Shown here: piece after piece, positions 37,980 to 52,038 of the stretch | Layout of the letters: each line of letters begins with the position of its first letter | Numbering within the stretch: the first letter of the stretch is position 1 | Origin: an uncultured Alphaproteobacteria bacterium | Lineage (GTDB): Bacteria > Pseudomonadota > Alphaproteobacteria > HIMB59 > GCA-002718135 | Direction of reading: 5' to 3' | Assembly: GCA_902618385.1 (NCBI GenBank) | Contig: CACNAF010000004.1 | Span: 762 to 64,761 of the forward strand | Length of the DNA stretch: 64,000 nucleotides | Notes under the pieces: generated by a model | The model's input: only the letters and a program-made list of their open reading frames with translations | What the model was told of the DNA's origin: nothing | The model's database searches: none | Position numbers and translations under genes: made by a program

Positions 37980-37990
37980 ATTATAAAGAT

Positions 37991-38404
37991 ATGAAAATAC
38001 TTATTTGTGGCCTTCCTGGTGCTGGTAAAACTTGGTTAGCTGAAAGGATTATTAAAGTAATTGATAATTGTGCTTGGTATAACGCAGATGTAGTAAGGAA
38101 GTCAGCAAACGATTGGGATTTTACGATGGAAGGTAGAATACGACAAGCCAATAGAATGAAAACATTTGCTGATTTTGAAAAACAAAATGGAAGATGGGTA
38201 ATTTGTGACTTTGTAGCACCAACTGAAAAAGCAAGAGAAGCTTTTGAGCCTGATTTTGTTATCTGGCTGGATACTATTAAAGAAGGTAGGTTTGAAGATA
38301 CAAATAAAATGTTTGAACAACCAAATAATACTGACATTAAAATAACCAAATTTTTATCAGATGAAGAAATAGAAAATCTAGCAAAGGAGATTAAAAATGT
38401 TTGA
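37991..38404 (+). CDS. Minimal P-loop kinase resembling the core of adenylyl-sulfate (APS) kinase
   Basis: 137 aa. Walker A GLPGAGKTWLA. The downstream pattern YNADVVRKS..DWDFT..GRIRQANRM......G.WVICDFVAPT..AR lines up by eye with the APS-kinase LDGDxVR...LGFS..DR.ENIRR....G.....FISP core. The C-terminal lid is missing. Confidence 0.5.
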   Translation: MKILICGLPGAGKTWLAERIIKVIDNCAWYNADVVRKSANDWDFTMEGRIRQANRMKTFADFEKQNGRWVICDFVAPTEKAREAFEPDFVIWLDTIKEGRFEDTNKMFEQPNNTDIKITKFLSDEEIENLAKEIKNV

Positions 38405-38792
38405 TTGGAAAAAACCAACAGTACAAATGTTAGGTAGATGGCAACCATGGCATGATGGACATACAGAATTATTTAAAAGGGCACTTCAGAAAACAGGTCA
38501 GGTATGTATTATGTATCGTGATGTGGGAGGTGTAGATGCAGGTGTAGAAGGTCAAGGTGACAATCCATTTCAATTTGAAGAAGTAAAAGCAAAAATTAAT
38601 GAAGGTTTAGCCCAACATGGTTTTACTGATGGAAAAGAATATGTAGTTGTTAAGGTTCCAAACATTATTGATATTTCTTATGGAAGAGGAGTTGGTTATT
38701 CATTTACAGAACATGATTTAGGAAAAGAAATACATGATATCTCGGCAACAAAAATTAGAAATGAAATGAGAGTTAAAGGGGAATTAAAATAA
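38397..38792 (+). CDS. Minimal HxGH-type nucleotidylyltransferase (cytidylyltransferase-like superfamily)
   Basis: 131 aa. GRWQPWHDGH (HxGH motif) and DISATKIRNEM (ISxTxIR motif). The ATG overlaps the kinase stop by 8 nt (ATGTTTGA). Confidence 0.6.
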   Translation: MFDWKKPTVQMLGRWQPWHDGHTELFKRALQKTGQVCIMYRDVGGVDAGVEGQGDNPFQFEEVKAKINEGLAQHGFTDGKEYVVVKVPNIIDISYGRGVGYSFTEHDLGKEIHDISATKIRNEMRVKGELK

Positions 38793-38793: not shown

Positions 38794-40113
38794 CTAAATT
38801 TTTTCTCCTGCTGGTTTTCCATATCCAACATTTTTTTTCCCATATCGTCTTACTCTCACATTACATTGTTCTGCATGGCCAATAAAACCTTCTAAATGTG
38901 AAAGTCTAGATCCATATTCTCCGATGAGAGTTGCAGCTTCATCTGTCATAATCTTTTGATAAGTATGGGTTTTAATGAACTTACCAACCCACAAACCACC
39001 AGTATATCTTCCAGCTTTTTTAGTTGGAAGAGTATGGTTAGTGCCTATGACTTTATCACCATTAGCAACATTAGTTCTGGCGCCCAAAAATAGAGCTCCA
39101 TAAGATGTCATATTTTCTAAAAACCAATCATCTTTTTTTGTCATAACTTGTACGTGCTCTGAAGCTATTTCATTTGCTTTAGATAACATCTCCTCATAGG
39201 TATCACATAAAATTATTTCTCCATAATCTCTCCAGCTTGTACTTGCTGTTTCTTTAGTAGGTAAAATTTCTAAAATTCTATCAATTTCTTTAAATGTTTC
39301 TTCTGCAAGTTTTCTTGAGTTCGTTATCATCACAGCAGGAGAATTATATCCATGTTCAGCTTGTCCTAATAAGTCTGTTGCACATATTTCACCATCAACA
39401 GTTTCATCTGCAATTACCATTGTTTCAGTTGGACCAGCAAATAAATCGATACCAACTTTGCCATACAATTGTCTTTTCGCTTCAGCAACAAATGCATTGC
39501 CAGGTCCAACAAGCATATCTACAGGTCTAATAGTTTCTGTACCAATAGCCATAGCACCAACTCCTTGCATTCCTCCCAAAACATAAATTTCGTGAGCACC
39601 ACCCATTTTCATTGCAGTAACGACAGCTGGATTTGGCTTACCTTTAAAAGGTGGTGTAGTAGCAACAATTCTTGGAACCCCAGCAACAGAGGCAGTAACA
39701 ACTGACATATGAGCAGAAGCTACCATTGGGAATTTTCCGGCAGGTACATAGCAACCTACTGCTTGTACAGGTATATTCTTATGACCTAGAATAACACCTG
39801 GATGCGTTTCTACTTCTAATTCACTTAAAGTTTTAAGTTGTGCTTCTGCAAATGATCGCACTTGTTTTTGAGCAAATTTAATATCTTCTTTGTCTTCGTC
39901 AGAGACTTCACTCATTAATTGATTTATTTGATCTTCACTTAATCGAAAACTATCTGGTGAATAGTTATCAAATTTTTGTGATAATTCTCTAACATATTTA
40001 TCACCTTCTGATTCAATTTTACTTAATGTTTCCTCAACAATTTTTTTTACTTTATCATTATCTTCAATTCTTTGTTTTTCATCTAAACCTTTTTTTAAAT
40101 ATTCAATTGCCAT
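38794..40113 (-). CDS. Histidinol-dehydrogenase-family 4-electron alcohol dehydrogenase, non-his-operon paralogue (candidate sulfopropanediol 3-dehydrogenase HpsN)
   Basis: 439 aa. HisD catalytic and Zn motifs are retained ([27 protein letters not shown]). The context is catabolic, not histidine biosynthesis. The HpsN assignment is an inference. Confidence 0.8.
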
Positions 40114-40115
40114 AA

Positions 40116-41210
40116 TTATTTTTTATGAATTAATTTAAAGATATCAATGCCTATTTGATCTAATATGTGTGCTATGTCGATTGGTACCCAATTTTCTCTA
40201 ATTCGCCCTTCATGATGTAAATAAAAATCCATAACTCTTATTGTGACAGCTTTACCAGTACCTTGGTAGCCTAGCCACTCATTAGAACCATGTATACACT
40301 CAATACTTTGCCAGCCTGATGTCATTGAATAATTACCATCAGCTATTTCTATATAATGACCAATTTTCCAATAATCTCTCTCTTTAAATGTAAACCTAAA
40401 AGGTAATTGATGATGATCAACATATCCTTTTAAACCTCTTGCTGTACCAATACCGCAAGGTCCGTACCACATCATTTTAGGATGCCAGAATTCTTTTTGA
40501 GGATGATTTAGTAATTTATCTCTAACGTATTCATGCGTTGATCCAGGATCTGTTTCTGGTTTTATATTTAAACTTCTCTGCATTGTTAAAGCTTGATTCA
40601 TCGAATTGATGGACAACTTATCATCCATATTTTCAAATGTTGTACCATCACCGGTTATAGGACCAGGCCACATTCCTTCTACTCCTAATGATTTATTTAT
40701 TGGCCAAAATCCTGCCTGACGAATAAAATCTAGAGTATCAATCAAAATATGTGATTGAATGATTTTATTATCTTTAATTTGATGCGCTTCACATATTCTT
40801 AAATGTATAGTTTTGCCATGAGCAGGAACATTAAGCCATGGATTAACAAAAGTCCCAGTTAAATGAGCTATTGTTGAAACAAAAACTGAGTTTTGAAAAG
40901 AACCCCCAAGAATTAGGTTATCCCTTCTCTCAAGATCAGGAAATGCATTTAAAAGCGGTTTCCATAATTTTTCTGTTATTTCAGAAATGCCTTTTAAGTC
41001 ATTAAGTGGATGGAAGGTTCTTATTTCTGCATCATCATGATACGCATCACTAATATTTTTATTAATATTTTCTGAATTGGATTCAGCTATATTTTTTAAA
41101 AGAATTCTGATTTTTTTTTTATTTGCTATATTTATCTTTGGATTTAAATTAATTACTTCAGTGCTTCCTTCTTTTTTTATTCCAGTATTAAAATTTTCAA
41201 TTTCTGTCAT
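40116..41210 (-). CDS. Tandem (two-domain) SnoaL-like/ester-cyclase NTF2-fold protein, paralogue 1
   Basis: 364 aa. Domain 1: [15 protein letters not shown]...GTF...[24 protein letters not shown]. Domain 2: [16 protein letters not shown]...[20 protein letters not shown]. Both fit the ester-cyclase pattern FPD...G.H.G...TGk......f....gkI.E.W...D...ll.QiG. Confidence 0.6.
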
Positions 41211-41260
41211 AATTTACTTAGTTTCAGTTACTCACAGTTTAGGCTCAATATTTAATTGAT

Positions 41261-41299
41261 TTATTCAATATTTTGAATAATATTCATTAAAAATGCATA
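41261..41299. promoter_or_regulatory. Cluster of overlapping palindromes in the divergent promoter region (candidate operator)
   Basis: TTATTCAA-TATT-TTGAATAA (41261-41280), TGAATA-A-TATTCA (41274-41286), then TATTCATTAAAAATGCATA (41281-41299). The last motif recurs upstream of the LacI/SBP genes. Confidence 0.3.
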
Positions 41300-41318
41300 A
41301 AATATAATTTTTCTTAAT

Positions 41319-42290
41319 ATGTCAATAAATATAGAAAGTCGTCTTGCGAGATTTAATGATTTAATACCAAGTAAGGTTCCTTTTGTTGAGGGTAAATTAA
41401 AAGGACATCAAGATAGATTGAATTACTCATTAGTGGGTCCTGGCGTAAGTGAAGATTCTAAACAAAATGTAAAAATTGCTGAGGAGCATGGGTTTAATAT
41501 TGGGGCAGTAAGTGCTGCACCGATGAATGGTTCTGGGCTTCATAGTCATACAACAGCTGAGGTGTTTATTATCTTTTCTGGTTCATGGCGTTTTTATTGG
41601 GGACCAGATGGAAAAGAGGGTGAGGTTATTTTACATAAAGGAGATGTCGCTTCATTTCCTACTAATATGTTTAGAGGATTTCAAAATGTTAGTGATCAAC
41701 AAGCATTAATGTTTGTAGTTTTAGGTGAAAATGATCCTGGAGTAATTACATGGACTCCTTCATTGTTAAAAAAAGCAAAAGAAACTGGAATGGTTCTTTT
41801 AAATGATAACTCTCTTATTGATTTAGAAAAAAATCAAATACCTGATGGTAAAAAAGCAATAGAGCCAATCACAGATAATGAATTAACACAATTTGATCAT
41901 TACACTTCTGAAGAAATTGAAAAATTTGTAATTCGTTATGCAGATCAAAAAAATTATTTTCTAGATGACGAACATTATAATTCAAATTCTATTTTAAATT
42001 ATCTAGATGATTTCACTATTCATAATAAAGAATTTAAACCATATATTAGTCATAAAACTGGATTTGGACTTACTCTTCTTGAAGGTAATAATGCTCATAT
42101 ACATTCTTACACCTCATCAAAATCTGAAGTTTATTTATGTTTGGCGGGAGAATGGGAAATTACATGTAATGATAAAAAGGTGTTAATTGGCCCTAGAGAT
42201 GCCTTCTCCCCTCCAAAAAACTCTACAAGAAGCCTTAAAAATATAAGTAGCGATAAAGGTAGCATTTATATAGTGCGCCAAAAAAATTAA
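41319..42290 (+). CDS. Bicupin (two cupin barrels) protein of unknown function
   Basis: 323 aa. The N-terminal barrel has a full metal motif, GSGLHSHTTAEVFIIFSG (G..H.H...E......G). The C-terminal barrel has AHIHSYTSSKSEVYLCLAGEW. Confidence 0.65.
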   Translation: MSINIESRLARFNDLIPSKVPFVEGKLKGHQDRLNYSLVGPGVSEDSKQNVKIAEEHGFNIGAVSAAPMNGSGLHSHTTAEVFIIFSGSWRFYWGPDGKEGEVILHKGDVASFPTNMFRGFQNVSDQQALMFVVLGENDPGVITWTPSLLKKAKETGMVLLNDNSLIDLEKNQIPDGKKAIEPITDNELTQFDHYTSEEIEKFVIRYADQKNYFLDDEHYNSNSILNYLDDFTIHNKEFKPYISHKTGFGLTLLEGNNAHIHSYTSSKSEVYLCLAGEWEITCNDKKVLIGPRDAFSPPKNSTRSLKNISSDKGSIYIVRQKN

Positions 42291-42293
42291 AAG

Positions 42294-43265
42294 ATGAAGG
42301 GTTTTGATAAAAAATTTAGAGATCTACCCGATTATATACTAAAAATTACACATCAAATTTGGGAAGACAAGGATGTTGAGTCAATAAGAGAATATTATGC
42401 AAAAGGAATTCCAGTTAGGTCCCCTGCTGGAGTTGTGTATGGACCTGATGCAGTTGTGAAAGCAACTTATGCAACTTTAGAAGAATTTCCTGACCGTCAA
42501 CTTTTAGGTGAAGATGTCATATGGATAGGTAATGAACATGATGGGTATTTATCTTCGCACCGAATTTTAACTAGAGCAACCCACTTAAATGATGGTGTTT
42601 ATGGAAAAGCAACAGGAAAAAAACTTATTTATAGAGTAATTGCAGATTGTGCATGCAAGGATAATCAAGTGTATGATGAATGGCTTGTTAGAGATCAGGG
42701 CGCAATCGTAAGACAACTTAATTTAGATCCAAAAAAATATGCAAAACAAATAATTGATAATCAAGGGGGTGTTGAAAATTGCGCAGTTCCTTTTAACAAA
42801 AATACGCCTTTGGATTTAAAATATTCACAATTAAATTTACCGGAAAAAAATTCAGGTTATGAATATGCAGAAGTCCTAAAATCTATATTTAATAAAGATA
42901 TTAATATAGTTGATAAAAAATATGATAGAGCAATAAATCAAGAATTACCAGGCGGATTGAAAGCTTACGGAGTAGAAGAAGTAAAAACTTTTTGGACTTC
43001 TCTATTGTCATCATTTCCTGATGCAACATTTTCAATTGATCATGTTAGCTATTTAGAAGAACCAAATCAGTACAGAAAGGCAGCTATTAGATGGTCACTT
43101 AATGGTGTTCATTCGGGTTCGGGATATTTTGGAGTACCTAGTCAAGCAGCAGTTCATGTCATGGCTATATCACATGTTGAATTTGGACCACGAGGTATTA
43201 AAAATGAATGGATTTTGTTTGATGAAACTGAAATTTGGAAACAAATTTTGATGAAAACAGGATAG
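42294..43265 (+). CDS. Tandem SnoaL-like/ester-cyclase NTF2-fold protein, paralogue 2 (more divergent)
   Basis: 323 aa. EEFPDRQLLGEDVIWIG...ATHLNDGVYGKATGKKLIYRVIADCACKDNQVYDEWLVRD, then a second SFPDATFSIDHVSYL...GVHSG...VHVMAISHVEFGPRGIKNEWILFDE. Confidence 0.55.
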   Translation: MKGFDKKFRDLPDYILKITHQIWEDKDVESIREYYAKGIPVRSPAGVVYGPDAVVKATYATLEEFPDRQLLGEDVIWIGNEHDGYLSSHRILTRATHLNDGVYGKATGKKLIYRVIADCACKDNQVYDEWLVRDQGAIVRQLNLDPKKYAKQIIDNQGGVENCAVPFNKNTPLDLKYSQLNLPEKNSGYEYAEVLKSIFNKDINIVDKKYDRAINQELPGGLKAYGVEEVKTFWTSLLSSFPDATFSIDHVSYLEEPNQYRKAAIRWSLNGVHSGSGYFGVPSQAAVHVMAISHVEFGPRGIKNEWILFDETEIWKQILMKTG

Positions 43266-43272
43266 CTAAAGA

Positions 43273-44403
43273 TTGAACACGAAAATTTTAACAACACATG
43301 TAGGAAGTTTACCTCGTTCTAAAGCTTTATCAGAATTACTTTTTGCAAAAGATAAGGGAGATAGTTTTAGTGAAAATGAATTTGATGATGTTGTAAAACA
43401 AAATGTAAGTGACATTGTCAAAAAACAACTTGATACAGGTATTGATTTTGTCAGTGATGGTGAAATGAGTAAAATCAGTTATGCTACATATGTTAAAGAT
43501 AGAATTAATGGTTTTTCCGGTGAAAGTGAAAGAAGAGCGCCAGCTGACTTAGATGCATTTCCTGAATATAAAGATAAAATTGCTAAAAGTGGGGGAACAC
43601 CTACTTATACCCGACCCTGTTGTACTGGAGAACTCTCTATTAAAAATAATTATGATCTTTTAAAAGATATAAATAATCTATCTTCTGCATTAAATGCTAA
43701 TAATCATACTAAGGGCTTTATGAATGCTGCTTCACCAGGAGTCATAAATGTTTTTTTACCAAATAAATTTTACAAAAATGATGACGAGTACCTAAGTAAG
43801 CTTAGCGTGATTATGGCAGAAGAATATCAACAAATTACTTATAATAATTTATTCTTGCAAGTTGATTGTCCAGATTTAGCCCTAGCAAGGCATATGAATT
43901 TTAAAGAATTAGATGAAAAAAGTTTTTTGCTGCGAGCAGAAAAACAAATTGAAGCTCTTAATCTTTCACTGGCATCAGTTCCACAAGACAAAATTAGAAT
44001 GCATATCTGCTGGGGAAATTATGAAGGACCTCATACCTTTGATATTGGTTTGGAAAAAATTTTACCAATAGTACTTAAGGCAAAAAGTAAATATTTATTA
44101 ATTGAGTCTTCTAATCCAAGACATGCTCATGAATGGAAAGTTTTTGAAAAGATCAAATTGCCACAAGATAAAGTTATTGTGCCAGGTGTTATTGATTCTA
44201 CTTCAAATTTTGTTGAACACCCGGAAGTTGTTGCTGATCGGTTAAAACAATTTTCTACTTTTGTACCAAAGGAGCAAATTATGGCTGGTACAGATTGTGG
44301 TTTTAGTACTTTTGCTGGATTTGGAAAAGTTGATGAAAAAATTTGTTATGAGAAATTAATTTCGTTAGTTAAGGGCACTCAAATAGCATCTAAAACGATT
44401 TGA
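43273..44403 (+). CDS. Cobalamin-independent methionine synthase catalytic-domain-only (core-MetE / MetE-II family) protein, copy 1
   Basis: 376 aa, TTG start in the track. THVGSLPR N-terminus, and Zn-ligand pattern H-x-C (RMHICWGNYEG), IESSNPRH, DCG (AGTDCGFS). Confidence 0.7.
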   Translation: MNTKILTTHVGSLPRSKALSELLFAKDKGDSFSENEFDDVVKQNVSDIVKKQLDTGIDFVSDGEMSKISYATYVKDRINGFSGESERRAPADLDAFPEYKDKIAKSGGTPTYTRPCCTGELSIKNNYDLLKDINNLSSALNANNHTKGFMNAASPGVINVFLPNKFYKNDDEYLSKLSVIMAEEYQQITYNNLFLQVDCPDLALARHMNFKELDEKSFLLRAEKQIEALNLSLASVPQDKIRMHICWGNYEGPHTFDIGLEKILPIVLKAKSKYLLIESSNPRHAHEWKVFEKIKLPQDKVIVPGVIDSTSNFVEHPEVVADRLKQFSTFVPKEQIMAGTDCGFSTFAGFGKVDEKICYEKLISLVKGTQIASKTI

Positions 44404-44404
44404 T

Positions 44405-45097
44405 TTAAAATAAAAAATTAGTAATAATTTTATTAAAAGTTTTTGGCTTCTCTAGCATTACAAAATGAGAAGAATTTTTAATTTCTGTATAAACTGAATA
44501 TTTTATTTTCTTATTTAATTCATTGTTCATAATATTAGAGGATAGTTTATCGTTTTTGCCACGAATAATAAGAGTTTTTGATATAATCTTATCTAGTTTA
44601 TTTAATTGATTAGGTCTTTTTAGAGTCAAATTCGTTTGGTCTAAAAAAGTTTTATATCCTAATTGTTTAGCCATTGAATAAACAGTATTTTGGTATGATG
44701 TATTTTTCAAATCTTTATAAGAAAAATAGGAACTATAGTTTTTTTGATAAAATAATTTTGCGAAGTTATTTTTATTTAATGTTGTTAATGACTTTTCTAA
44801 AAGCAGCTTTCTTTTTTGTGAAATATTTCTTGCATTAGTTCCTATTAAAACTAATTTATCTAATATTTCTGGATAATCGATTGCTAATTTTATTGCAATA
44901 AATCCTCCCATTGAAAAACCAATAACAGAAATTTTTTTTTTATTTTTGTTTATGATTTTTTGTACAGCATCATCAACTGTAGCAATATTCTTTAGAGAAG
45001 GAATGGAAACATTATATTTTTTTTTTAGAATAGATATTTGTGCATCCCAAATGCTATTGGTACACATATATCCTGGAATCAAAATTATTTTAGACAA
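44405..45097 (-). CDS. Alpha/beta hydrolase
   Basis: 230 aa. Nucleophile elbow GFSMGG and C-terminal SSHFVMLEKP (catalytic His region). Downstream of, and co-oriented with, the LacI gene. Confidence 0.7.
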   Translation of the reverse strand: MSKIILIPGYMCTNSIWDAQISILKKKYNVSIPSLKNIATVDDAVQKIINKNKKKISVIGFSMGGFIAIKLAIDYPEILDKLVLIGTNARNISQKRKLLLEKSLTTLNKNNFAKLFYQKNYSSYFSYKDLKNTSYQNTVYSMAKQLGYKTFLDQTNLTLKRPNQLNKLDKIISKTLIIRGKNDKLSSNIMNNELNKKIKYSVYTEIKNSSHFVMLEKPKTFNKIITNFLF

Positions 45098-45100
45098 TTT

Positions 45101-46105
45101 CTATCTAGTTGTATTTCGATAAATAAATTTACCCTGAATTAAATGATTGATAGGCTCTAACTCTGGATCCTTAATGTTATCATCTATTATTTGGGTTACA
45201 AGTTTAGACATTTGTCTTACTGGTTGTCTAATTGTTGTTAAATTATATGAATGCCAATTTGCTGAAGATATATCATCATATCCAATTACCTCTATCTCTT
45301 CTGGTATATTAAGTTTTGTATTTTTTTTAATATAATCAACACAACCAAAAGCCATAATATCATCAGCACAAAACAATGCTGTAATATTATTTTTTAAAAG
45401 TTTATTTGCTGAATCTAAACCTCCTTCATATGTAAAATTTCCTCTTTCATGAAACAGTTTAATTTTGTCTAAATTATTTAAATAGTTTTTGAAACCTTTA
45501 CATCTTTCTTTACTCACAAATGATCCAATTGGTCCTTCAACCATTCCTATTTTAGTATGCCCATTATTAACGAAATGTTCTGCCGCCGCTTCTCCACCAT
45601 ACTTATGATCACAAGCTACAGAACTCAGTGTAGGTATTTTCCAATTTCTATTAAATGCAATAAGTTGAATTTGTTTGGCTAAACAGTTTTCTACAAACGC
45701 ATCAGTAGGCTTTGTTGCTGAAACAATTGCAACTAACTTTTCTTTTAAGTAGGGTTGAATTAAATTATCATCTAATTCCTCACCATCATCAGTAGTAATT
45801 AATAAAATTCTATACCCTGATACTCTTAGAGCTTCATGTAATTCGATAAGAACTTCAGGATAATATCTATTCGTAATATATGGTAATATAACACCAACTA
45901 AACCTCCCTCATCTAAACTCAGAGAATTAGTTGAAAAGGCCTGTGGTTTATATCCTAGTTTTTTTGCTGCCTCGATAACTCTCAATTTTGTTCTATTAGA
46001 AATGCTTGCTCCTTTTGTAAAGCATCGTGAAACAGCCGATTGTGACACACCTGCTAGCTTTGCCACACTACTTGATGTCGGTAATTTTGCTTTCTGAATG
46101 TTCAT
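45101..46105 (-). CDS. LacI-family transcriptional regulator
   Basis: 334 aa. N-terminal HTH (SSVAKLAGVSQSAVSRCFT......R..V..AA..LGYKP) plus a periplasmic-binding-protein-like sensor domain. Confidence 0.9.
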   Translation of the reverse strand: MNIQKAKLPTSSSVAKLAGVSQSAVSRCFTKGASISNRTKLRVIEAAKKLGYKPQAFSTNSLSLDEGGLVGVILPYITNRYYPEVLIELHEALRVSGYRILLITTDDGEELDDNLIQPYLKEKLVAIVSATKPTDAFVENCLAKQIQLIAFNRNWKIPTLSSVACDHKYGGEAAAEHFVNNGHTKIGMVEGPIGSFVSKERCKGFKNYLNNLDKIKLFHERGNFTYEGGLDSANKLLKNNITALFCADDIMAFGCVDYIKKNTKLNIPEEIEVIGYDDISSANWHSYNLTTIRQPVRQMSKLVTQIIDDNIKDPELEPINHLIQGKFIYRNTTR

Positions 46106-46121
46106 TTATCCACTATTAATT

Positions 46122-46159: not shown

Positions 46160-46232
46160 ATCATTTTAATAATTATAGTAATATACATACGCGTAAAAAA
46201 ATTGTTTTTTATACGTAATATATGGAGGAAAC

Positions 46233-47474
46233 ATGTTTTTAAAAAAATTAATTTTAGGTGGATTAACAGCACTATTCTTCAGCTCATCTTTGTTTGCGGC
46301 TGATTGTGGTCCTAATGGACAATCCATCCGAATTTTAGCAAGTGATTTTCCAGCAATTCACGCAATAGCAAATTCTGCTGAAAGCAATTGTGCAGGATCT
46401 GCATCTGAATTCACTCGCAATCATACTACTGAAGCGCGCCAAATAATGAACGCTGCTCAAACACCAGATCCAGCAGAGTATACATCAGTGATTGTAGCTA
46501 ACTCTACTCTTGTTCAGTTAATGAATGATGGACTAGTGAGACCATTAAATGACCTAGTTGAAAAATATGGTGGCAACTTAAAATCTAATCAACTTATAAC
46601 TATTGATGGTAAAATAATGGCTATAGCATTCATGGCTAATTCTCAGCACATGTATTATAGAACAGATATTTTAGATAAAGCTGGAGTTGATGGAATGCCA
46701 GCAACTTATGATGAAATAATTTCTGCTGCTGAAAAAATACGTTCAGCTGGTATCATGGAGCATCCACTTGTAATGAATCTTAAAGTAGGATGGAATGTTG
46801 GAGAAGTATTTAATACTATATACTTAGCACATGGTGGAGAATTCTTTAAGCAAGGTAGTGCAGAAGCATCTATTAATAACGCTAAAGGTATTGCGGCTCT
46901 AGAAACAATGAAAGCTCTAGTTGAGTATGCTCATCCTGATCATTTAACACAGGCATCTGATGATACGCAAGGATTATGGGAAGCTGGTCAAGCTGCAATT
47001 GGCTTTATGTGGGGTTCTCGTGGAGGAGTTATACTAGATAATGAAGGTTCTTCAGCTGAGGTGACTTCAAATACTGTTCTATCTGCAGCTCCAACTGTTA
47101 CTGGTGGTTCAATACCAGGAGCAACTTTATGGTGGGATGGAATAACTATAGCAACTAACGTGTCTGACAGTGAAGCAGAAGCAACGTTTGCAGCACTTGT
47201 AAGTGGTATGACTTCAGAAATGGTTGCTGCTAATAATGATGATGCAATTTGGTTAATTGATGGTTTTAAACCTGGTCCAGCTGCAGCAGGAGTGTCTGCA
47301 ACTGCTCAAGGCGGCGCTAAATCTTATCCAATGTTTGCTCAAATGGGATTATTGCACAATGCATTAGGTGCAGAGCTAGTTGATTTTTTAAAGGGAGCAG
47401 AAAGTGCTGAACAAGCACTTAGTGATGTAGAGGCTGTTTACGAAACAGCTGCTAAAGACGCAGGTTATCTGTAG
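46233..47474 (+). CDS. ABC transporter substrate-binding protein, family 1 (CUT1: sugar / glycerol-3-phosphate type)
   Basis: 413 aa. Signal peptide (…SSSLFAADC), SBP_bac_1-like composition, and a strong RBS (GGAGGAAAC-ATG). Confidence 0.85.
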   Translation: MFLKKLILGGLTALFFSSSLFAADCGPNGQSIRILASDFPAIHAIANSAESNCAGSASEFTRNHTTEARQIMNAAQTPDPAEYTSVIVANSTLVQLMNDGLVRPLNDLVEKYGGNLKSNQLITIDGKIMAIAFMANSQHMYYRTDILDKAGVDGMPATYDEIISAAEKIRSAGIMEHPLVMNLKVGWNVGEVFNTIYLAHGGEFFKQGSAEASINNAKGIAALETMKALVEYAHPDHLTQASDDTQGLWEAGQAAIGFMWGSRGGVILDNEGSSAEVTSNTVLSAAPTVTGGSIPGATLWWDGITIATNVSDSEAEATFAALVSGMTSEMVAANNDDAIWLIDGFKPGPAAAGVSATAQGGAKSYPMFAQMGLLHNALGAELVDFLKGAESAEQALSDVEAVYETAAKDAGYL

Positions 47475-47496
47475 TCAATAAATATAAATCAATAAA

Positions 47497-47524
47497 AAGG
47501 GGTTTTCAAATTTGAAAACCCCTT
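47497..47524 (+). terminator. Perfect 28-nt palindrome (14-bp stem) between the SBP and permease genes: intra-operon attenuator/terminator
   Basis: AAGGGGTTTTCAAA|TTTGAAAACCCCTT, 23 nt after the SBP stop. Its G/C-rich base stands out in an AT-rich spacer. Confidence 0.6.
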
Positions 47525-47554
47525 ATATCTTTCTATGTAATTTAAAATAGCATA

Positions 47555-48589
47555 ATGAAGCACAGCACATTCTTATTATTCATCTTTCCTTCATTAAGTG
47601 TAATGTTTTTATTTATTGCAATACCTATAGTTTCTGTTTTTATTCAATCCCTACATATAGAACATAAACAAGTAATAATTGTTTCAGAAAATTGTGATCC
47701 TTTTGGATGTGAGACGACAACATCTGTGGATACTGAAGCTTCTGCGAAGTTAAAAGAAAAAGCACCTCTTGGTAAATTTAATGGATTTAAAACGTATTCA
47801 AACAGAATGCATTTTGCATTTGATGAAATAGGAGAGGCTTGGAATAGCTCGGATAGTTTTATAGTTTTTGTAAAAAAAATATATAATTACCCCTTATATA
47901 GAGCGCTTAGCTTTACTCTTACTTACACCTTTGTAGTTACTCCGTTTGTTTTATTTCTTGGTTTTTTAGTTGCTCTTGGAGTCAATAATCTTCCTAAGTT
48001 GTTAAAAGGTCCAACAATTTTTGCATCTCTTCTTCCAATGATAGTTACACCTCTTGTGGGTTCATTGATATTGTTTTGGATGGTTGATGGCGATGGTGTT
48101 ATTGGAGCCACACTCCAAAAATTATTTAATGATAATTCTCTGAGCTTGAAAGCATCACCTGTGCTTACCTGGGTCATGTTGATGGTCTATGGTATATGGC
48201 ATTTGATGCCGTTTAGTTTTATTGTTTTTTATGCAGGTCTTCAAACAGTTCCTCATGAAACAATTGAGGCAGCAACTATAGATGGTGCATCTAAATTTCA
48301 AAGAACACGCCATGTCGTTATTCCTCATTTAATGCCACTTGCTATTTTTATAACTTTAATACTTTTAATGGATAATTTTAGAGTTTTTGAACCAATAATA
48401 AGTTTTAGAGCAGAAGCCCACGCTACCTCAATATCCTGGTTAATATGGAATCATTTGCGTGAAAGTGCTTACCCTCTATATAATGCAGCAGGCGCAACAT
48501 CTATGATTACTATTTTTTGTGTAGGAATTTTACTTTTGCCAGTGCTAATTCGAACATGGAGAGATTTTAATGAAAAAAATAAGGGTTAG
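47555..48589 (+). CDS. CUT1 ABC transporter permease (UgpA/MalF-like)
   Basis: 344 aa. Multi-TM protein with the EAA loop region ETIEAATIDGASKFQRTRHVVIPHL. Confidence 0.85.
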   Translation: MKHSTFLLFIFPSLSVMFLFIAIPIVSVFIQSLHIEHKQVIIVSENCDPFGCETTTSVDTEASAKLKEKAPLGKFNGFKTYSNRMHFAFDEIGEAWNSSDSFIVFVKKIYNYPLYRALSFTLTYTFVVTPFVLFLGFLVALGVNNLPKLLKGPTIFASLLPMIVTPLVGSLILFWMVDGDGVIGATLQKLFNDNSLSLKASPVLTWVMLMVYGIWHLMPFSFIVFYAGLQTVPHETIEAATIDGASKFQRTRHVVIPHLMPLAIFITLILLMDNFRVFEPIISFRAEAHATSISWLIWNHLRESAYPLYNAAGATSMITIFCVGILLLPVLIRTWRDFNEKNKG

Positions 48590-48595
48590 AAATTT

Positions 48596-49477
48596 ATGAA
48601 TACAAAAATTGAAAATAAATTAACCCCAGTTCGAATTATTGCTTTTGTATTCGTGGCTCTTTGGTTGATTGTTGCTATGTTTCCTTTTATCTGGACATTG
48701 TGGGGGTCTTTTAAAGTACAAGCTGATTTTTTTTCAAAAGCTGACTGGGCAAATGCAATATTTGGCTTTCATACTGAAAAACAAACAGGTAATTTTTTTA
48801 CTATTGATGGATATTATGGCTCTTGGATAGAAGAGGAATTTTGGCGCGCTGTTATTAACACAAGCATAGTAGTATTTTTTACAGTTTTAATTTCTCTTAC
48901 ATTTGGAACTTTAGGAGGCTATGCTCTTGCAAGGTCTACTTATCGATATGCCTTCTGGATTTTAATGGCAGGTCTTATTTTTCGTGCGATGCCTCATATG
49001 ACTTTAGTTTCAGGATATCTTCAACCTTTTTTTGCTTGGAATGTTTGGGGAATTTTACCTACAACAATAATTGTACTTGTTGCAATTAATCAGCCTTTTA
49101 CTCTGTGGATGTTACATTCATTTTTTTTAAATATACCAAAAGATTTAGATGAAAGCGCTATGTGCGATGGCTGTAATAGATTTCAAGCATTTAGATATGT
49201 GATCATTCCTATAATGTGGCCGGGTGTAATAACTACTGGATTATTTAGTTTCCTTCTTGCTTACAATGATTTTACAGTTACATCTATGTTGCTTTCAGAT
49301 GAAAATGAAACAATGATCCCAGCAATTGCTAGCTTTTTAGGTACCGTACAGGAAGAAGGTAAAGTAATGTATGCTGTAGCTGCCGTTGTTTCAGCAACTG
49401 CTCCATTATTCTTTCTTGTAATGTTTTTTCAAAGACAGATTGTTAGCGGATTAACAGCTGGAGCAGTTAAAGGTTAA
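48596..49477 (+). CDS. CUT1 ABC transporter permease (UgpE/MalG-like)
   Basis: 293 aa. EAA loop DLDESAMCDGCNRFQAFRYVIIPIM. Confidence 0.85.
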   Translation: MNTKIENKLTPVRIIAFVFVALWLIVAMFPFIWTLWGSFKVQADFFSKADWANAIFGFHTEKQTGNFFTIDGYYGSWIEEEFWRAVINTSIVVFFTVLISLTFGTLGGYALARSTYRYAFWILMAGLIFRAMPHMTLVSGYLQPFFAWNVWGILPTTIIVLVAINQPFTLWMLHSFFLNIPKDLDESAMCDGCNRFQAFRYVIIPIMWPGVITTGLFSFLLAYNDFTVTSMLLSDENETMIPAIASFLGTVQEEGKVMYAVAAVVSATAPLFFLVMFFQRQIVSGLTAGAVKG

Positions 49478-49482
49478 AAATT

Positions 49483-50556
49483 ATGAAACCTGAAGAGTTA
49501 AAAAAATATTTTGAAAATTATCAATTAGCTACTCAAAATTTTAACAAAAATTCAATAAAAAATTCTCTAGTTAAATATTTTTCTGAAAATTCGGTGTTTC
49601 ATTTCTGCTATCCTTTTGGAACATTTAATGGTTTAGATAAATTGTTAACTAATTGTATAAACCCCCTTTTAGATAGCATTCCTGATCTTGAAAGAAGAGA
49701 TATGATTGTTATGGCAGGCACAACACCTGAAGGTAAAGATTGGTTAGGCACTATGGGCAATTATATGGGAACTTTTTTAAAATCATTTTTAGATATTCCG
49801 CCAACAGGAAATTTAGTTCATATGCGTTATCATGAGTTTTTCCAAATAGAAAATAATCAAATTATAGAAATGCAATCAATTTGGGATCTACCTGAATTGA
49901 TGATGCAGGCAAATGCATGGCCAATGAGTCCTCAGCTAGGATCTTTTTTATGCACACCATCTCCTATGACAGGAGACGGCTTAAAGATAGAAGGTGATGG
50001 ATCAAAAAATTTTGACATTGTAATAAATATGCTTCGAGATATGGTTTTACACCCTAGTAATCCAAATCCACAAGTTATGAATTTAGATAAATATTGGCAC
50101 CCCAGATTTAATTGGTACGGACCAGTTGGAATTGGCACAGCAAGAGGTATCGAAGGATTTCGCCATTGGCATCAAATACCTTTTTTGCGTGCAATGCCTG
50201 ATAGAAAGGGAGGCTCATCAAATGATAGTTTAAAAAATGAGGGGTTGCAGGATATGCAAACACATTGGATATATGAAGGCGATTATGTTTGTGAAACTGG
50301 TTGGCCAAATATGCGATCTACAATTTCTCAAGATGGATGGATGGGTATTGCTCCATCAAATCAAATTATAGAAATGCGGAGTTTAGATTTTTGGAGATTA
50401 GAAAATGGTCTTATCAGAGAGAATTGGGTTTTAGTAGACCTTCTCGATGTTTACCAGCAAATAGGTGTTAATGTTTTTGATAGAATAAAAGAATTTAACA
50501 AAGCGAGAAACATTGGAGATATTAATATTTCTAAAGGACTTGGGTCAATAAAATAA
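49483..50556 (+). CDS. Tandem SnoaL-like/ester-cyclase NTF2-fold protein, paralogue 3
   Basis: 357 aa. Shares with paralogue 1 the strings (S/A)(I/F)PDLERRD, TGDG, WYGP.GIGTARG.(K/E)G(Y/F) and (R/L)IRENWV..D.....QIG. Lies directly after the permease genes, where an ATPase gene would be expected. Confidence 0.6.
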   Translation: MKPEELKKYFENYQLATQNFNKNSIKNSLVKYFSENSVFHFCYPFGTFNGLDKLLTNCINPLLDSIPDLERRDMIVMAGTTPEGKDWLGTMGNYMGTFLKSFLDIPPTGNLVHMRYHEFFQIENNQIIEMQSIWDLPELMMQANAWPMSPQLGSFLCTPSPMTGDGLKIEGDGSKNFDIVINMLRDMVLHPSNPNPQVMNLDKYWHPRFNWYGPVGIGTARGIEGFRHWHQIPFLRAMPDRKGGSSNDSLKNEGLQDMQTHWIYEGDYVCETGWPNMRSTISQDGWMGIAPSNQIIEMRSLDFWRLENGLIRENWVLVDLLDVYQQIGVNVFDRIKEFNKARNIGDINISKGLGSIK

Positions 50557-50598
50557 TAAGTTATATGATTTCTTGTTCCATAAAATTGAAAGGATAAA

Positions 50599-51258
50599 AT
50601 GGATTATAAAGCACTTTTATTTGGATCTATTGGAACACTTATTGAATCTTCTAATATTCAACGTAATTCATTTAATGAAGCTTTTAAAGAAGCTGGTCTA
50701 GATTGGTATTGGGATGAGCAAGATTATAAAATTTTGTTAAAAAAATCTGGTGGGACAAAAAGAGTAGAAGATTTTGCTGAAAAAAATAATGTTAATGTAA
50801 ATGCTTCACAAATTAGAAATAGAAAAACAGAAATTTTTAGTTCATTCATTATTAAGAATAAACAAAAATTAAGAAAAAGTGTTGATGAGATAATTAAGTA
50901 TACAAAAGATAACAATATTAAACTTGCTTTCTCAACTTCTACAACTTTAAATAATGTCGATGCAGTATTTGAAAGTCTTTCTAGTCAAATTGCTAAAGAA
51001 GATTTTGACTTTATTGGCAATAAATCGTTTGTTAAAAATGAAAAACCCCATCCAGAAATATACAAAGTAACTTTAGATAAACTAAATTTACACCCAGAAG
51101 ATTGTCTTGCAATAGAAGATACTGAAGAAAGTAGTAACTCTGCCGTAAACGCTGGAATTAAGTGTATAGGGTTTCCAGGAGATTATCACCTAGAAGATAA
51201 TTTTCAGATGTGCATCAAAAAAATGAATTTATTAGATCAATCTATCTTTTCATTGTAA
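50599..51258 (+). CDS. HAD-fold protein (beta-phosphoglucomutase-like subfamily) lacking the motif-I aspartates
   Basis: 219 aa. Motif I reads LLFGSIGTLIES instead of FDxDGTLxDS. Motifs II (FSTST), III (KPHPEIY) and IV (EDTEESSNSAVNAG) are recognisable. Confidence 0.65.
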   Translation: MDYKALLFGSIGTLIESSNIQRNSFNEAFKEAGLDWYWDEQDYKILLKKSGGTKRVEDFAEKNNVNVNASQIRNRKTEIFSSFIIKNKQKLRKSVDEIIKYTKDNNIKLAFSTSTTLNNVDAVFESLSSQIAKEDFDFIGNKSFVKNEKPHPEIYKVTLDKLNLHPEDCLAIEDTEESSNSAVNAGIKCIGFPGDYHLEDNFQMCIKKMNLLDQSIFSL

Positions 51259-51270
51259 ATAATCAGATCA

Positions 51271-52038
51271 ATGTTTCTAAAAAATTTTAATGTAAAAAAT
51301 AAGACTGCTCTTGTTACAGGATCAGGCAAAGGCATCGGTAAAGCATGTGCTATAGCATTAGCAGAAGCAGGTGCAAATGTAATTATTCTTAGTCGTACAG
51401 AAAAAGATCTTTTGATTGTTAAAAACAAAATTCAAAAACTCAAAAAGAAATGTAGTTATTATGTGTGCGATGTAACTAATTTAAAAGAAATAAAAAAAAT
51501 ATTTTCTGAAATCAATAAATTAGACATTTTAGTAAATAATGCTGGTACAAACAGACCTGAATATTTTACCAAAATTAAAAGAAAAGACATGAGTGAAGTT
51601 GTTGATCTTAATATTAAAGCATCATTCGATATTGCTCAATTAGCTACAAAAGTTATGCTTAAATCAAAAAATAGAAAAAAAATCGGTGGATCAATAATAA
51701 ATATCTCTTCTCAATTAGGTAAAGTTGGAGCTCCTCTTAGAAGTGTTTATAATATGACTAAATTTGGCGTTGAAGGTCTCACTAGAGGAATGGCTATTGA
51801 TTTGTCTAAATATAACATTAGAGTTAACTCTGTTTGTCCTACATTTGTGGAAACACCAATGGTCAAAAAATTTTTTAAAGATAAAAGTTTTAAAAAATCT
51901 GTAATTGAAAACATACCTTTGGGGAAAGTAGCAACAGAAAGTGATATTGCTAGTGCTGTAGTGTATCTTGCTTCAGATGCCGCATCAATGATGACTGGTT
52001 CATCACTAGTAATTGATGGAGGATGGACAGCTAAATAA
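51271..52038 (+). CDS. Short-chain dehydrogenase/reductase (classical SDR)
   Basis: 255 aa. TGSGKGIG cofactor motif, NNAG, catalytic S...YNMTK, and PTFVETP. Confidence 0.9.
   Translation: MFLKNFNVKNKTALVTGSGKGIGKACAIALAEAGANVIILSRTEKDLLIVKNKIQKLKKKCSYYVCDVTNLKEIKKIFSEINKLDILVNNAGTNRPEYFTKIKRKDMSEVVDLNIKASFDIAQLATKVMLKSKNRKKIGGSIINISSQLGKVGAPLRSVYNMTKFGVEGLTRGMAIDLSKYNIRVNSVCPTFVETPMVKKFFKDKSFKKSVIENIPLGKVATESDIASAVVYLASDAASMMTGSSLVIDGGWTAK

What the first reader, a model, noticed from the sequence alone, without database searches (positions are those of the whole stretch)
38794..40113. HisD paralogue with intact catalytic motifs outside any his operon: candidate DHPS (sulfopropanediol) 3-dehydrogenase HpsN
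The protein keeps the HisD Zn and catalytic motifs (QAEH, G.NH.LPT, H near the C-terminus), so it should perform an NAD-dependent alcohol-to-acid oxidation. It is co-transcribed with an ester cyclase in a catabolic island. The one well-known catabolic HisD homologue is HpsN, which oxidises 2,3-dihydroxypropane-1-sulfonate to sulfolactate. Sulfolactate can be degraded via sulfopyruvate and sulfoacetaldehyde, and xsc and pta (present here) process sulfoacetaldehyde. DHPS is structurally a sulfonate analogue of glycerol-3-phosphate, and the island's importer is of the CUT1 family that includes UgpBAE. No recognisable sulfopyruvate decarboxylase (ComDE), SuyAB or CuyA is in the window. The route from sulfolactate to sulfoacetaldehyde would therefore have to be encoded elsewhere or by the uncharacterised genes, for example the bicupin or the SDR.
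Basis: inference. Interest (0 to 1): 0.6.

Follow-up and report, generated by a model that had tools for sequence, protein, structure and literature searches.

The report
HpsN-like dehydrogenase, probably not HpsN
This SAR11 gene is a real, intact relative of the DHPS-oxidising enzyme HpsN, but it lacks HpsN's sulfonate-binding histidine and always travels with an uncharacterised catabolic gene island, so it is probably being miscounted as a DHPS gene in ocean surveys.

Summary
38794-40113(-) encodes an intact 439-aa HisD-family dehydrogenase outside any his operon, 2 nt downstream of a double-SnoaL gene. Its closest characterised relatives are HpsN (402 bits vs 261 for the best HisD).

It fails the published HpsN test: the loop G-R-Y-A/S-H (His126 binds the sulfonate) reads G-K-F-P-M, invariant in 80/80 SAR11 orthologues. 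SAR11-like contigs carry a separate genuine hpsN (GRYAH loop, 56-58% identical to crystallised HpsNs, 50% to this ORF) in an Ldh_2-regulator-SBF-pta-hpsN cluster. True HpsNs are 55-58% identical to one another; this ORF is 46-50% identical to them.

Its constant partners are SnoaL_A, a bicupin, SnoaL_B and a MetE-like protein, with LacI, a CUT1 importer, an SDR and a hydrolase or aldolase also present. xsc is nearby in only 36/80 loci. A homologous module occurs in soil Actinobacteria without desulfonation genes. xsc and pta are explained by an adjacent taurine-type module.

Best reading (about 0.55): a His-less sister-clade enzyme oxidising an alcohol intermediate of the island's unknown substrate. 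DHPS or cysteinolate activity remains possible (about 0.25). Verdict: partly supported; a new variant of a known kind.

The parts
38794..40113 (-). HisD/HpsN-family NAD+/Zn2+ dehydrogenase, 439 aa (the finding)
   Evidence: ORF. PF00815 446 bits. PDB best hits are HpsN 8V35 at 402 bits and HisD 4G07 at 261 bits. 80 SAR11 orthologues at 83-99% identity.
39724..39738 (-). Codons 126-130, G-K-F-P-M: the loop that reads G-R-Y-A/S-H in HpsN (His126 binds the sulfonate) and G-S-A-P-L in HisD
   Evidence: Pairwise and multiple alignments. The back-translated G-K-F-P-M-V-A pattern occurs exactly once in each of the 80 orthologous loci. Motif definition from PMC11382572.
39052..39060 (-). Codons 352-354, G-D-K: the Zn-ligand Asp plus the Lys equivalent to CpHpsN Lys353 (a sulfonate H-bond). 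HisD has G-D-Y here.
   Evidence: Alignments. The motif match at 39023-39060 is the only one in the window.
40116..41210 (-). SnoaL_A: two-domain SnoaL/NTF2-like protein, 364 aa, upstream operon partner (2-nt gap)
   Evidence: Pfam SnoaL + SnoaL_2. Adjacent in 78/80 loci. 53% orthologue in L140. No solved relative by sequence.
41319..42290 (+). Bicupin metalloenzyme, 323 aa, divergently transcribed
   Evidence: Cupin_2/Cupin_1. Present in 69/80 loci, which is all loci long enough. 31% identical over its full length to the Microbacterium cluster cupin, E=9e-56. AF2 pLDDT 78; Foldseek finds only generic bicupins such as oxalate decarboxylase and quercetinase, TM about 0.5. The H-x-H-x3-E motif is visible.
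42294..43265 (+). SnoaL_B: second two-domain SnoaL-like protein, 323 aa
   Evidence: Pfam. 69/80 loci. 25% identical over its full length to the Microbacterium double SnoaL, E=2e-23.
43273..44403 (+). MetE-like protein (cobalamin-independent methionine-synthase catalytic domain only), 376 aa
   Evidence: PF01717 54 bits. NCBIfam hits are all far below their cutoffs. Weak PDB hits. 67/80 loci. Absent from the Actinobacterial clusters.
44405..45097 (-). Small alpha/beta-hydrolase, 230 aa, weakly PcaD/enol-lactonase-like
   Evidence: Pfam, NCBIfam. Full-length homologue in Microbacterium next to the CUT1 permeases, E=3e-19. Present in only 8/80 SAR11 loci; an RraA-like aldolase occupies this slot in L069.
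45101..46105 (-). LacI-family regulator
   Evidence: Pfam LacI + Peripla_BP. A LacI gene also flanks the Actinobacterial HisD-like genes.
46233..49477 (+). CUT1-type ABC importer: SBP (46233-47474) and two permeases (47555-48589, 48596-49477). No ATPase gene in the island.
   Evidence: Pfam. The SBP has only distant PDB relatives (54 bits or less) and 8HQQ (SAR11_0769) is not among them. 24% homologue in Friedmanniella.
49483..50556 (+). SnoaL_C: third two-domain SnoaL-like protein, 357 aa
   Evidence: Pfam.
50599..52038 (+). HAD (beta-phosphoglucomutase family) hydrolase 50599-51258 and SDR 51271-52038
   Evidence: Pfam, NCBIfam. In the 84% clade the orthologous SDR and HAD lie immediately downstream of the HisD-like gene (L069). 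An SDR also directly follows the Actinobacterial HisD-like gene.

Best explanation
The ORF encodes an active NAD+- and Zn2+-dependent dehydrogenase of the HisD/HpsN superfamily. It should carry out the family's two-step, four-electron oxidation of a primary alcohol, through the bound aldehyde, to a carboxylate. The substrate is held on the zinc by a vicinal OH or NH2 group and a second ligating group.

It is neither the housekeeping HisD nor an orthologue of the DHPS dehydrogenase HpsN. It belongs to a His-less sister clade with the loop G-[KR]-[YF]-P-[LM]. Members of this clade, in SAR11 and in Actinobacteria, are embedded in a catabolic module. The module comprises two-domain SnoaL proteins, a bicupin metalloenzyme, an SDR, a small hydrolase or a class-II pyruvate aldolase, a LacI regulator and a CUT1 ABC importer.

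The most likely role is oxidation of a hydroxymethyl group on an intermediate derived from the island's imported substrate. That substrate is unidentified and probably resembles a polyol, lactone or sugar acid. Free DHPS is less likely.

Shown: family membership, intact catalytic and cofactor residues, the variant loop and its strict conservation, paralogy to a genuine SAR11 hpsN, and the conserved gene linkage across phyla.
Inferred: the reaction type (from the family), operon expression, membership of one pathway with the island genes, and the nature of the substrate.
For: Catalytic, Zn and NAD residues are conserved. The HpsN loop GRY[AS]H is replaced by GKFPM, invariant in 80/80 orthologues at 83-99% identity.

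Identity matrix: true HpsNs are 55-58% identical to one another (Cp-Rp 55, L140-Rp 56, L140-Cp 58). The window ORF is 46-50% identical to them. All closer relatives at 52-65% have a P-L or P-M loop.

A genuine SAR11-type hpsN (GC 0.29-0.30, GRYAH loop) sits in an Ldh_2-regulator-SBF-pta-hpsN cluster on two contigs.

Linkage: SnoaL_A in 78/80 loci, bicupin 69, SnoaL_B 69 and MetE-like 67, against xsc in 36/80. In L069 the operon is SnoaL_A, HisD-like, SDR, HAD.

Actinobacterial relatives (P0123 family, GKYPL loop) sit in LacI / double-SnoaL / cupin / SDR / HpcH-aldolase / abhydrolase / CUT1 clusters with no sulfonate genes. Their cupin, SnoaL, hydrolase, SDR and SBP are full-length homologues of the window's.

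xsc and pta are explained by the adjacent aminotransferase plus alaDH. SAR11 DHPS uptake is by TRAP SAR11_0864.
Against: No enzyme of this clade has been assayed. Burchill et al. mutated Glu318, His319 and Asp352 but not His126, so loss of the His is not proven to abolish DHPS turnover. Lys353, the other sulfonate contact, is retained.

The island lies between xsc and pta/aminotransferase/ald in the window. In L140 the same island (SnoaL_A 53%, bicupin 50%) abuts the genuine hpsN-pta cluster, so a link to organosulfonates is possible.

The window's pta lacks the neighbouring true hpsN, and no contig carried both paralogues. That pattern is also compatible with functional replacement.

Sulfoglycolytic bacteria commonly excrete C3 sulfonates (general knowledge). 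The absence of desulfonation genes in the Actinobacterial clusters therefore does not prove a non-sulfonated substrate.

The substrate is not identified. Fold and sequence searches of the partner enzymes were uninformative.
Confidence: 0.55

Rival explanations
1. It is a working C3-sulfonate dehydrogenase, oxidising R-DHPS to sulfolactate and/or L-cysteinolate to cysteate, with a variant substrate loop. Zn plus the retained Lys bind the sulfonate. In lineages that lack the pta-linked hpsN, it substitutes for that gene.
For: HpsN is the closest characterised relative. Lys353 and all catalytic residues are kept. HpsN-family enzymes are promiscuous towards L-cysteinolate. The gene lies about 4 kb from xsc in 36/80 loci. 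The island abuts the genuine hpsN in L140. No contig holds both paralogues, and the window's pta has no adjacent true hpsN. KO-based pipelines call it HpsN.
Against: The diagnostic loop differs at all four variable positions and is fixed as GKFPM. The ORF lies outside the HpsN identity group. No hpsO/hpsP, Ldh_2/SlcD, SuyAB, ComDE or CuyA lies nearby, whereas the genuine SAR11 hpsN has Ldh_2, SBF and pta. Homologous modules in soil Actinobacteria lack sulfonate genes. DHPS uptake in SAR11 is by a TRAP system.
Confidence: 0.25
2. It acts on a different sulfonated alcohol produced by the island, for example an intermediate of a sulfonated sugar or glycerol derivative. Carbon would then flow towards the flanking xsc/pta genes.
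For: The island is bracketed by xsc on one side and pta/aminotransferase/ald on the other. CysQ and an APS-kinase-like gene are adjacent. The SBP's third-best PDB hit is the sulfoquinovosyl-glycerol binder SmoF, but at only 44 bits. The anion-binding Lys is kept.
Against: No sulfoquinovosidase, sulfolyase or known sulfoglycolysis enzyme is in the island. xsc linkage is absent in 44/80 loci. Nothing sulfonate-specific is present in the Actinobacterial clusters. This rests purely on position.
Confidence: 0.12
3. It is the genome's ordinary histidinol dehydrogenase, displaced from the his operon.
For: It passes NCBI's hisD model TIGR00069 (432 bits, cutoff 243.8). NCBI records name close relatives 'histidinol dehydrogenase'. 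The P-M loop resembles HisD's P-L.
Against: TIGR00069 does not discriminate: crystallised HpsNs score 428-429 bits and a true HisD 535. The ORF is only about 35% identical to solved HisDs, against 46-48% to HpsN. It has G-D-K rather than G-D-Y. It is operonic with a SnoaL gene in a variable island. SAR11 genomes lacking HpsN-like genes still have a roughly 30% HisD hit.
Confidence: 0.02

Closest known systems
HpsN, (R)-DHPS 3-dehydrogenase (EC 1.1.1.308): Cupriavidus pinatubonensis (PDB 8V35) and Ruegeria pomeroyi (PDB 8WWE)
   Same: Same fold and length. It has the same Zn ligands (Gln, His, Asp, His'), the catalytic Glu-His pair, the NAD-specifying Asp and the Lys353 equivalent. These are the best-scoring characterised relatives (402 and 360 bits; 48% and 46% identity).
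   Different: The sulfonate-recognition loop G-R-Y-A/S-H is G-K-F-P-M, with no His126 equivalent. The ORF lies outside the 55-58% identity group of true HpsNs. It has no hpsO/hpsP, TRAP HpsKLM or sulfolactate-processing neighbours.
SAR11 genuine HpsN: the 57-59% class listed by Liu et al. 2024 (including the assayed CuHpsN, PU1002_02401), represented here by L140:5732-7018
   Same: Same lineage (GC about 0.30) and same superfamily. In L140 it lies next to orthologues of the window's SnoaL_A and bicupin.
   Different: It has the GRYAH loop and is 56-58% identical to Rp/Cp HpsN, but only 50% identical to the window ORF. It sits in an Ldh_2-regulator-SBF-pta-hpsN cluster. The published kinetics (Km for R-DHPS about 106 mM) most likely refer to this class and should not be transferred to the window ORF.
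Bilophila sp. 4_1_30 HpsN (L-cysteinolate dehydrogenase; JBC 2025, PMC12814064)
   Same: It is an HpsN-family enzyme used outside DHPS catabolism, which shows the family takes amino-alcohol sulfonates.
   Different: It is reported to share identical substrate-binding residues with CpHpsN and to cluster with cuyA, cuyB and cuyC. The window ORF has neither feature.
Histidinol dehydrogenase HisD (EC 1.1.1.23; for example Brucella 4G07, E. coli 1K75)
   Same: Same fold and chemistry (four-electron alcohol-to-acid oxidation). Both have a Pro plus a hydrophobic residue at the end of the loop (P-M against P-L).
   Different: About 35% identity. G-D-K instead of G-D-Y. Not in a his operon; it lies in a variable catabolic island.
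Unnamed Actinobacterial HisD-like subfamily (P0123 family: Microbacterium, Friedmanniella, Microlunatus, Streptomyces)
   Same: It shares the His-less loop (GKYPL) and G-D-K. The accompanying genes are homologous: LacI, double SnoaL, large cupin, SDR, small alpha/beta-hydrolase, CUT1 importer and a pyruvate-type aldolase.
   Different: Only 46-49% identical to the window ORF. The Actinobacterial clusters add a CN-hydrolase and a second HisD-like paralogue and lack the MetE-like gene. Nothing in the family is characterised.

Membership tests
HpsN (sulfopropanediol 3-dehydrogenase) | PF00815 fold with Zn ligands (Gln248, His251, Asp352, His411') and catalytic Glu318/His319 | tested here: met
   Q251, H254, D353, H413 and E319/H320 lie in invariant columns. 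Residue roles come from PMC11382572.
HpsN (sulfopropanediol 3-dehydrogenase) | HpsN-specific loop G-R-Y-A/S-H, whose final His (His126) ligates Zn in the resting enzyme and H-bonds the sulfonate | tested here: not met
   The window has G126-K-F-P-M130. The same loop is found in 80/80 orthologues. Cp, Rp, SAR11-L140, P0129, P0139, P0151, P0162 and P0172 all carry the His.
HpsN (sulfopropanediol 3-dehydrogenase) | Second sulfonate contact, Lys353 (G-D-K; HisD has G-D-Y) | tested here: met
   G352-D353-K354.
HpsN (sulfopropanediol 3-dehydrogenase) | Orthology: groups with characterised HpsNs rather than beside them | tested here: not met
   True HpsNs are 55-58% identical to one another across the beta-proteobacterial, Roseobacter and SAR11 enzymes. 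The window ORF is 46-50% identical to each, including the SAR11 enzyme. No formal tree could be built because the scripting machine was lost.
HpsN (sulfopropanediol 3-dehydrogenase) | Genomic association with hpsO/hpsP, a DHPS transporter and a sulfolactate route (SuyAB, SlcD/ComC with ComDE and Xsc, or CuyA) | tested here: not met
   None of these lies in the window or within 10 kb in the 80 loci, apart from xsc in 36/80. The genuine SAR11 hpsN has Ldh_2, SBF and pta.
HpsN (sulfopropanediol 3-dehydrogenase) | NAD+-dependent oxidation of R-DHPS to R-sulfolactate with millimolar or better Km | not testable with these tools
   This needs a purified enzyme. The published SAR11 assay most likely concerns the other paralogue.
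HisD (histidinol dehydrogenase) | Passes the curated hisD model | tested here: inconclusive
   TIGR00069 gives 431.6 bits against a cutoff of 243.8. Crystallised HpsNs also pass at 428-429 bits, and a true HisD scores 535, so the model does not discriminate.
HisD (histidinol dehydrogenase) | Loop G-S-A-P-L type and G-D-Y; roughly 50% or higher identity to bona fide HisDs of related bacteria | tested here: not met
   GKFPM and G-D-K. 35% identity to Brucella HisD.
HisD (histidinol dehydrogenase) | Sole HisD-family gene of the genome, or located with his genes | tested here: inconclusive
   It is not located with his genes in the window or in the 80 loci. Whether a separate hisD exists in this genome could not be checked. 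Support is indirect: SAR11 genomes without HpsN-like genes still show a roughly 30% HisD hit. Attempts to fetch a SAR11 hisD failed.
Unnamed His-less HpsN-sister clade ('island-type' HisD-like) | Loop G-[KR]-[YF]-P-[LM] with G-D-K, and adjacency to double-SnoaL, bicupin, SDR, LacI and CUT1 genes | tested here: met
   Loop. Context in SAR11. Context in Actinobacteria: with homology of the partner genes. This clade is defined here; it is not a curated family.

The most novel reading that the evidence does not exclude
The ORF marks an undescribed, cross-phylum catabolic pathway found in SAR11 and soil Actinobacteria. It is built from a His-less HpsN-like dehydrogenase, several two-domain SnoaL enzymes, a bicupin, an SDR, a hydrolase or pyruvate aldolase, and a dedicated CUT1 importer, acting on an abundant metabolite that nobody has yet assigned to SAR11. 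Homology- and KO-based pipelines label this paralogue hpsN. Meta-omic estimates that attribute much of oceanic DHPS oxidation to SAR11 may therefore partly count this gene instead.
Probability: 0.4. Interest if true: 0.75.

Novelty: new variant of a known kind. Interest (0 to 1): 0.55.

Why it matters
SAR11 is the most abundant heterotroph in the surface ocean, and hpsN counts are used to apportion DHPS (organosulfur) flux among bacteria (Liu 2024).

This paralogue is very abundant. Single 90%-identity clusters hold 470-858 member sequences, and its bicupin partner's clusters reach 954. It is auto-annotated either as HpsN or as HisD, and the curated hisD model cannot separate the classes.

If it is not a DHPS enzyme, two things follow. 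First, gene-based DHPS budgets need a loop-aware filter: GRY[AS]H against G[KR][YF]P[LM]. Second, SAR11 has an unrecognised substrate and uptake system, in a genome famous for having very few carbohydrate-type transporters.

If it does oxidise DHPS without His126, the published specificity determinant of HpsN would need revising. Either outcome can be tested directly with one recombinant protein.

Tried and rejected
- A scripted alignment and tree of about 100 representatives failed because the scripting machine was lost. I replaced it with MAFFT alignments and a BLASTP identity matrix.
- I first assumed the assayed SAR11 CuHpsN (Km about 106 mM) was the orthologue of this ORF and that the Met explained its poor kinetics. 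I rejected this after calibration: Liu's SAR11 entries are 57-59% identical to RpHpsN, while this ORF is 46%. The 56% GRYAH-type SAR11 gene was then found directly.
- I proposed 'GGLWVG vs GGLSVH' as a second signature. I dropped it because the genuine SAR11 HpsN has GGLFVG.
- P0151, an AT-rich GRYTH type, is not the SAR11 HpsN of the literature; it is 46% identical to RpHpsN.
- Shared LacI operator: both intergenic regions contain AT-rich palindromes but no common site. Inconclusive.
- Riboswitch or regulatory RNA: no Rfam hit in the window, even at E of 1 or less across the island.
- Literature: no paper links SAR11 with SnoaL or describes a HisD-like/SnoaL/cupin module.
- Separate SAR11 hisD: the candidates P0174 and P0223 proved to be non-SAR11.
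- The closest non-SAR11 relatives (P0124, P0128, P0134) lie on contigs too short to give context.
- P0126 (GKYPM, G-D-R) has a different context, with a TRAP system, an aminotransferase and a D-Ser-dehydratase-like gene. I did not use it for inference.
Full report
**1. The observation**

The window (GC about 0.30, SAR11-like) has an ATG-initiated 439-aa ORF at 38794-40113 on the minus strand. It matches Pfam Histidinol_dh over its whole length (446.5 bits) and NCBI's hisD model TIGR00069 (431.6 bits against a cutoff of 243.8).

- Zn ligands Q251, H254, D353, H413
- catalytic E319/H320
- H360 in N-H-T-L-P-T
- the NAD-specifying Asp (D49)

It is the only HisD-family gene in the window, and no his gene appears among the ORFs scanned. 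The upstream two-domain SnoaL ORF ends 2 nt before its start codon. xsc (TIGR03457, 956 bits), a pta-family gene and a CUT1-type importer are present. No ComDE, SuyAB or CuyA-type protein is present.

**2. Closest characterised relatives**

Against all PDB sequences the best matches are:

| Structure | Enzyme | Bits |
|---|---|---|
| 8V35 | Cupriavidus HpsN | 402 |
| 8WWE | Ruegeria HpsN | 360 |
| 4G07 | Brucella HisD (best HisD) | 261 |

Near-identical metagenomic proteins are labelled 'sulfopropanediol 3-dehydrogenase' by JGI and 'histidinol dehydrogenase' by NCBI. A control shows the NCBI model does not discriminate: crystallised HpsNs score 428-429 bits, the window ORF 432, and a genuine HisD 535.

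**3. The HpsN membership test fails at the diagnostic loop**

Burchill et al. (PMC11382572) define HpsN against HisD by the loop G-R-Y-A/S-H (HisD: G-S-A-P-L). The final His126 is a Zn ligand in the resting enzyme and hydrogen-bonds the sulfonate in the product complex, together with Lys353. Liu et al. independently highlight Arg124, Tyr125 and Ser126 of RpHpsN.

The window protein reads G126-K-F-P-M130, while Lys353 is kept as G-D-K. The back-translated G-K-F-P-M-V-A pattern occurs exactly once in each of 80 orthologous SAR11 loci spanning 83-99% identity. The Met is therefore maintained by selection.

His126 itself was not mutated in that study. The loop difference lowers the claim 'it is an HpsN', but it does not prove inactivity on DHPS.

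**4. SAR11 has a different, genuine hpsN**

Liu et al. list SAR11 HpsN homologues at 57-59% identity to RpHpsN. They assayed one, CuHpsN, and found a Km for R-DHPS of about 106 mM. BLASTP reproduces their 55% for Cp against Rp but gives only 46% for the window ORF against Rp. The published SAR11 enzyme is therefore most likely another paralogue.

A metagenome scan with an AT-biased back-translation of the HpsN loop returned more than 120 marine contigs. On L140 (GC 0.29-0.30) the gene encodes a 428-aa protein with P-A-G-R-Y-A-H-I-A-S-A. Its identities are 56% to RpHpsN, 58% to CpHpsN and 50% to the window ORF. On both L140 and L134 it sits in a conserved Ldh_2(ComC-type)-regulator-SBF symporter-pta-hpsN cluster.

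True HpsNs from three distant lineages are thus more alike (55-58%) than the two SAR11 paralogues are to each other (50%). Every relative closer than about 50% to the window ORF carries a P-L or P-M loop. The window ORF belongs to a His-less sister clade, not to the HpsN orthologous group.

**5. What the gene travels with**

In 80 GTDB species-representative SAR11 genomes, neighbour frequencies are as follows:

| Neighbour | Loci (of 80) |
|---|---|
| SnoaL_A | 78 |
| Bicupin | 69 |
| SnoaL_B | 69 |
| MetE-like | 67 |
| xsc | 36 |

The bicupin, SnoaL_B and MetE-like counts cover every locus long enough to show them. xsc is absent from the 83-85% clade.

In that clade the operon is SnoaL_A, HisD-like, SDR, HAD. 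An RraA-type aldolase replaces the window's alpha/beta-hydrolase.

The nearest full-length non-SAR11 relatives (P0123 family, GKYPL loop) are Actinobacterial: Microbacterium, Friedmanniella, Microlunatus and Streptomyces. Their clusters read CN-hydrolase, large cupin, double SnoaL and LacI on one strand, then divergently HisD-like, SDR and HpcH/HpaI aldolase. An alpha/beta-hydrolase and a CUT1 importer are also present, along with a second HisD-like paralogue that also lacks the His.

The partners are true homologues of the window's genes:

| Partner | Identity | E-value |
|---|---|---|
| Bicupin | 31% | 9e-56 |
| Double SnoaL | 25% | 2e-23 |
| SDR | 30% | 3e-32 |
| Alpha/beta-hydrolase | 19% | 3e-19 |
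| SBP | 24% | 4e-21 |

The bicupin, SnoaL and hydrolase alignments span the full protein. No desulfonation gene occurs in those clusters. The dehydrogenase is therefore one component of a multi-gene catabolic module shared across phyla.

**6.

xsc and pta need no DHPS. The window encodes a class-III omega-aminotransferase (AptA/Tpa-like, 587 bits) and alanine dehydrogenase (483 bits) next to pta. This is the usual taurine to sulfoacetaldehyde to acetyl-phosphate arrangement (the pathway assignment rests on established knowledge of Tpa-Ald-Xsc-Pta).

DHPS in SAR11 is bound by the TRAP protein SAR11_0864. The island's CUT1 SBP is unrelated to the one characterised SAR11 sugar SBP and has only distant sugar-binding relatives.

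**7. Caveats that keep a sulfonate role alive**

- The island lies between xsc and pta/aminotransferase/ald in the window.
- In L140, orthologues of SnoaL_A (53%) and the bicupin (50%) directly abut the genuine hpsN-pta cluster.
- The window's pta (57% orthologue) has EamA, not hpsN, beside it.
- No contig carried both paralogues, so replacement cannot be excluded.
- The region downstream of the genuine hpsN is variable. The island itself exists in at least four diverged versions while the dehydrogenase stays 96-99% identical. Adjacency may therefore only reflect a recombination hot spot.

**8. Mechanism and verdict**

- **Most likely (about 0.55):** a Zn/NAD-dependent four-electron oxidation of a hydroxymethyl group on an intermediate of the island's unidentified, CUT1-imported substrate. 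The accessory enzymes weakly suggest lactone or sugar-acid chemistry: a PcaD-like hydrolase, a KduD/gluconate-5-DH-like SDR, pyruvate-type aldolases and a 2-His-1-Glu bicupin.
- **Rival (about 0.25):** a DHPS or cysteinolate dehydrogenase with a variant loop.
- **Rival (about 0.12):** a dehydrogenase acting on another sulfonated alcohol.
- **Rival (about 0.02):** housekeeping HisD.

The gene is a new variant of a known enzyme kind. No paper describes the module. Its practical importance is that this abundant paralogue is probably being counted as hpsN.

Noticed in passing
window 52927-56400, with 32793-34562: A taurine-type module: pta (-), an AptA/Tpa-like class-III aminotransferase (+) and alanine dehydrogenase (+), with xsc 20 genes away. 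The SnoaL/bicupin island is inserted between the two halves.
   Followed up: partly
window 38794-52038; loci L001-L080: The island is strongly allelic. In loci where the dehydrogenase is 96-99% identical, SnoaL_A, the bicupin, SnoaL_B and the MetE-like gene are only 56-75% identical, and the SBP and permease 39-58%. There are at least four island versions, with a sharp identity break at the dehydrogenase/SnoaL_A junction.
   Followed up: partly
L140:49-7018 and L134:4609-10133: The genuine SAR11-type hpsN (GRYAH loop) lies in a conserved Ldh_2(ComC-type)-HTH regulator-SBF symporter-pta-hpsN cluster. This cluster is absent from the window, where EamA sits beside pta.
   Followed up: yes
window 46233-49477; L140:7015-8070: The window's CUT1 importer has no ATPase gene in the island. 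In L140 an ABC ATPase occupies the position downstream of the SnoaL_A orthologue, where the window has the dehydrogenase.
   Followed up: no
window 37188-38792: CysQ (289 bits, above its cutoff), a 137-aa APS-kinase-like P-loop protein and a 131-aa NMNAT-like protein lie between xsc and the dehydrogenase. The two small genes are present in only 25/80 loci. An antisense 155-aa ORF at 37981-38448 is probably spurious.
   Followed up: no
window 56397-58989: A second, better-scoring MetE-like gene (PF01717, 139 bits) overlaps by 44 nt the start of a PehA-like phosphoric/sulfuric ester hydrolase (sulfatase family). It is followed by a family-5 SBP peptide/opine-type ABC system at 59141-63445.
   Followed up: no
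window 8450-13242: ZnuABC zinc-uptake genes are followed by a CobW-type GTPase and a 345-aa WD40 beta-propeller protein, an unusual companion in a streamlined genome.
   Followed up: no
L085:3383-4699 and L087:19960-21291: The Actinobacterial versions of the module contain a second HisD-like paralogue (loop A-G-R-F-P-L, S/A-D-K-G), also without the HpsN histidine. This hints at two alcohol-to-acid oxidations in that pathway.
   Followed up: partly
NCBIfam TIGR00069: The curated 'hisD' equivalog-domain model is passed by crystallised HpsN enzymes (428-429 bits against a cutoff of 243.8). No HpsN-specific model matched any of these proteins. Automated names in this family are therefore unreliable.
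   Followed up: yes
L084 (P0126 context): Another His-less HisD-like gene (GKYPM, G-D-R) sits with a TRAP transporter, an AraC regulator, an aminotransferase and a D-serine-dehydratase-like gene. It may act on an amino-alcohol substrate.
   Followed up: no
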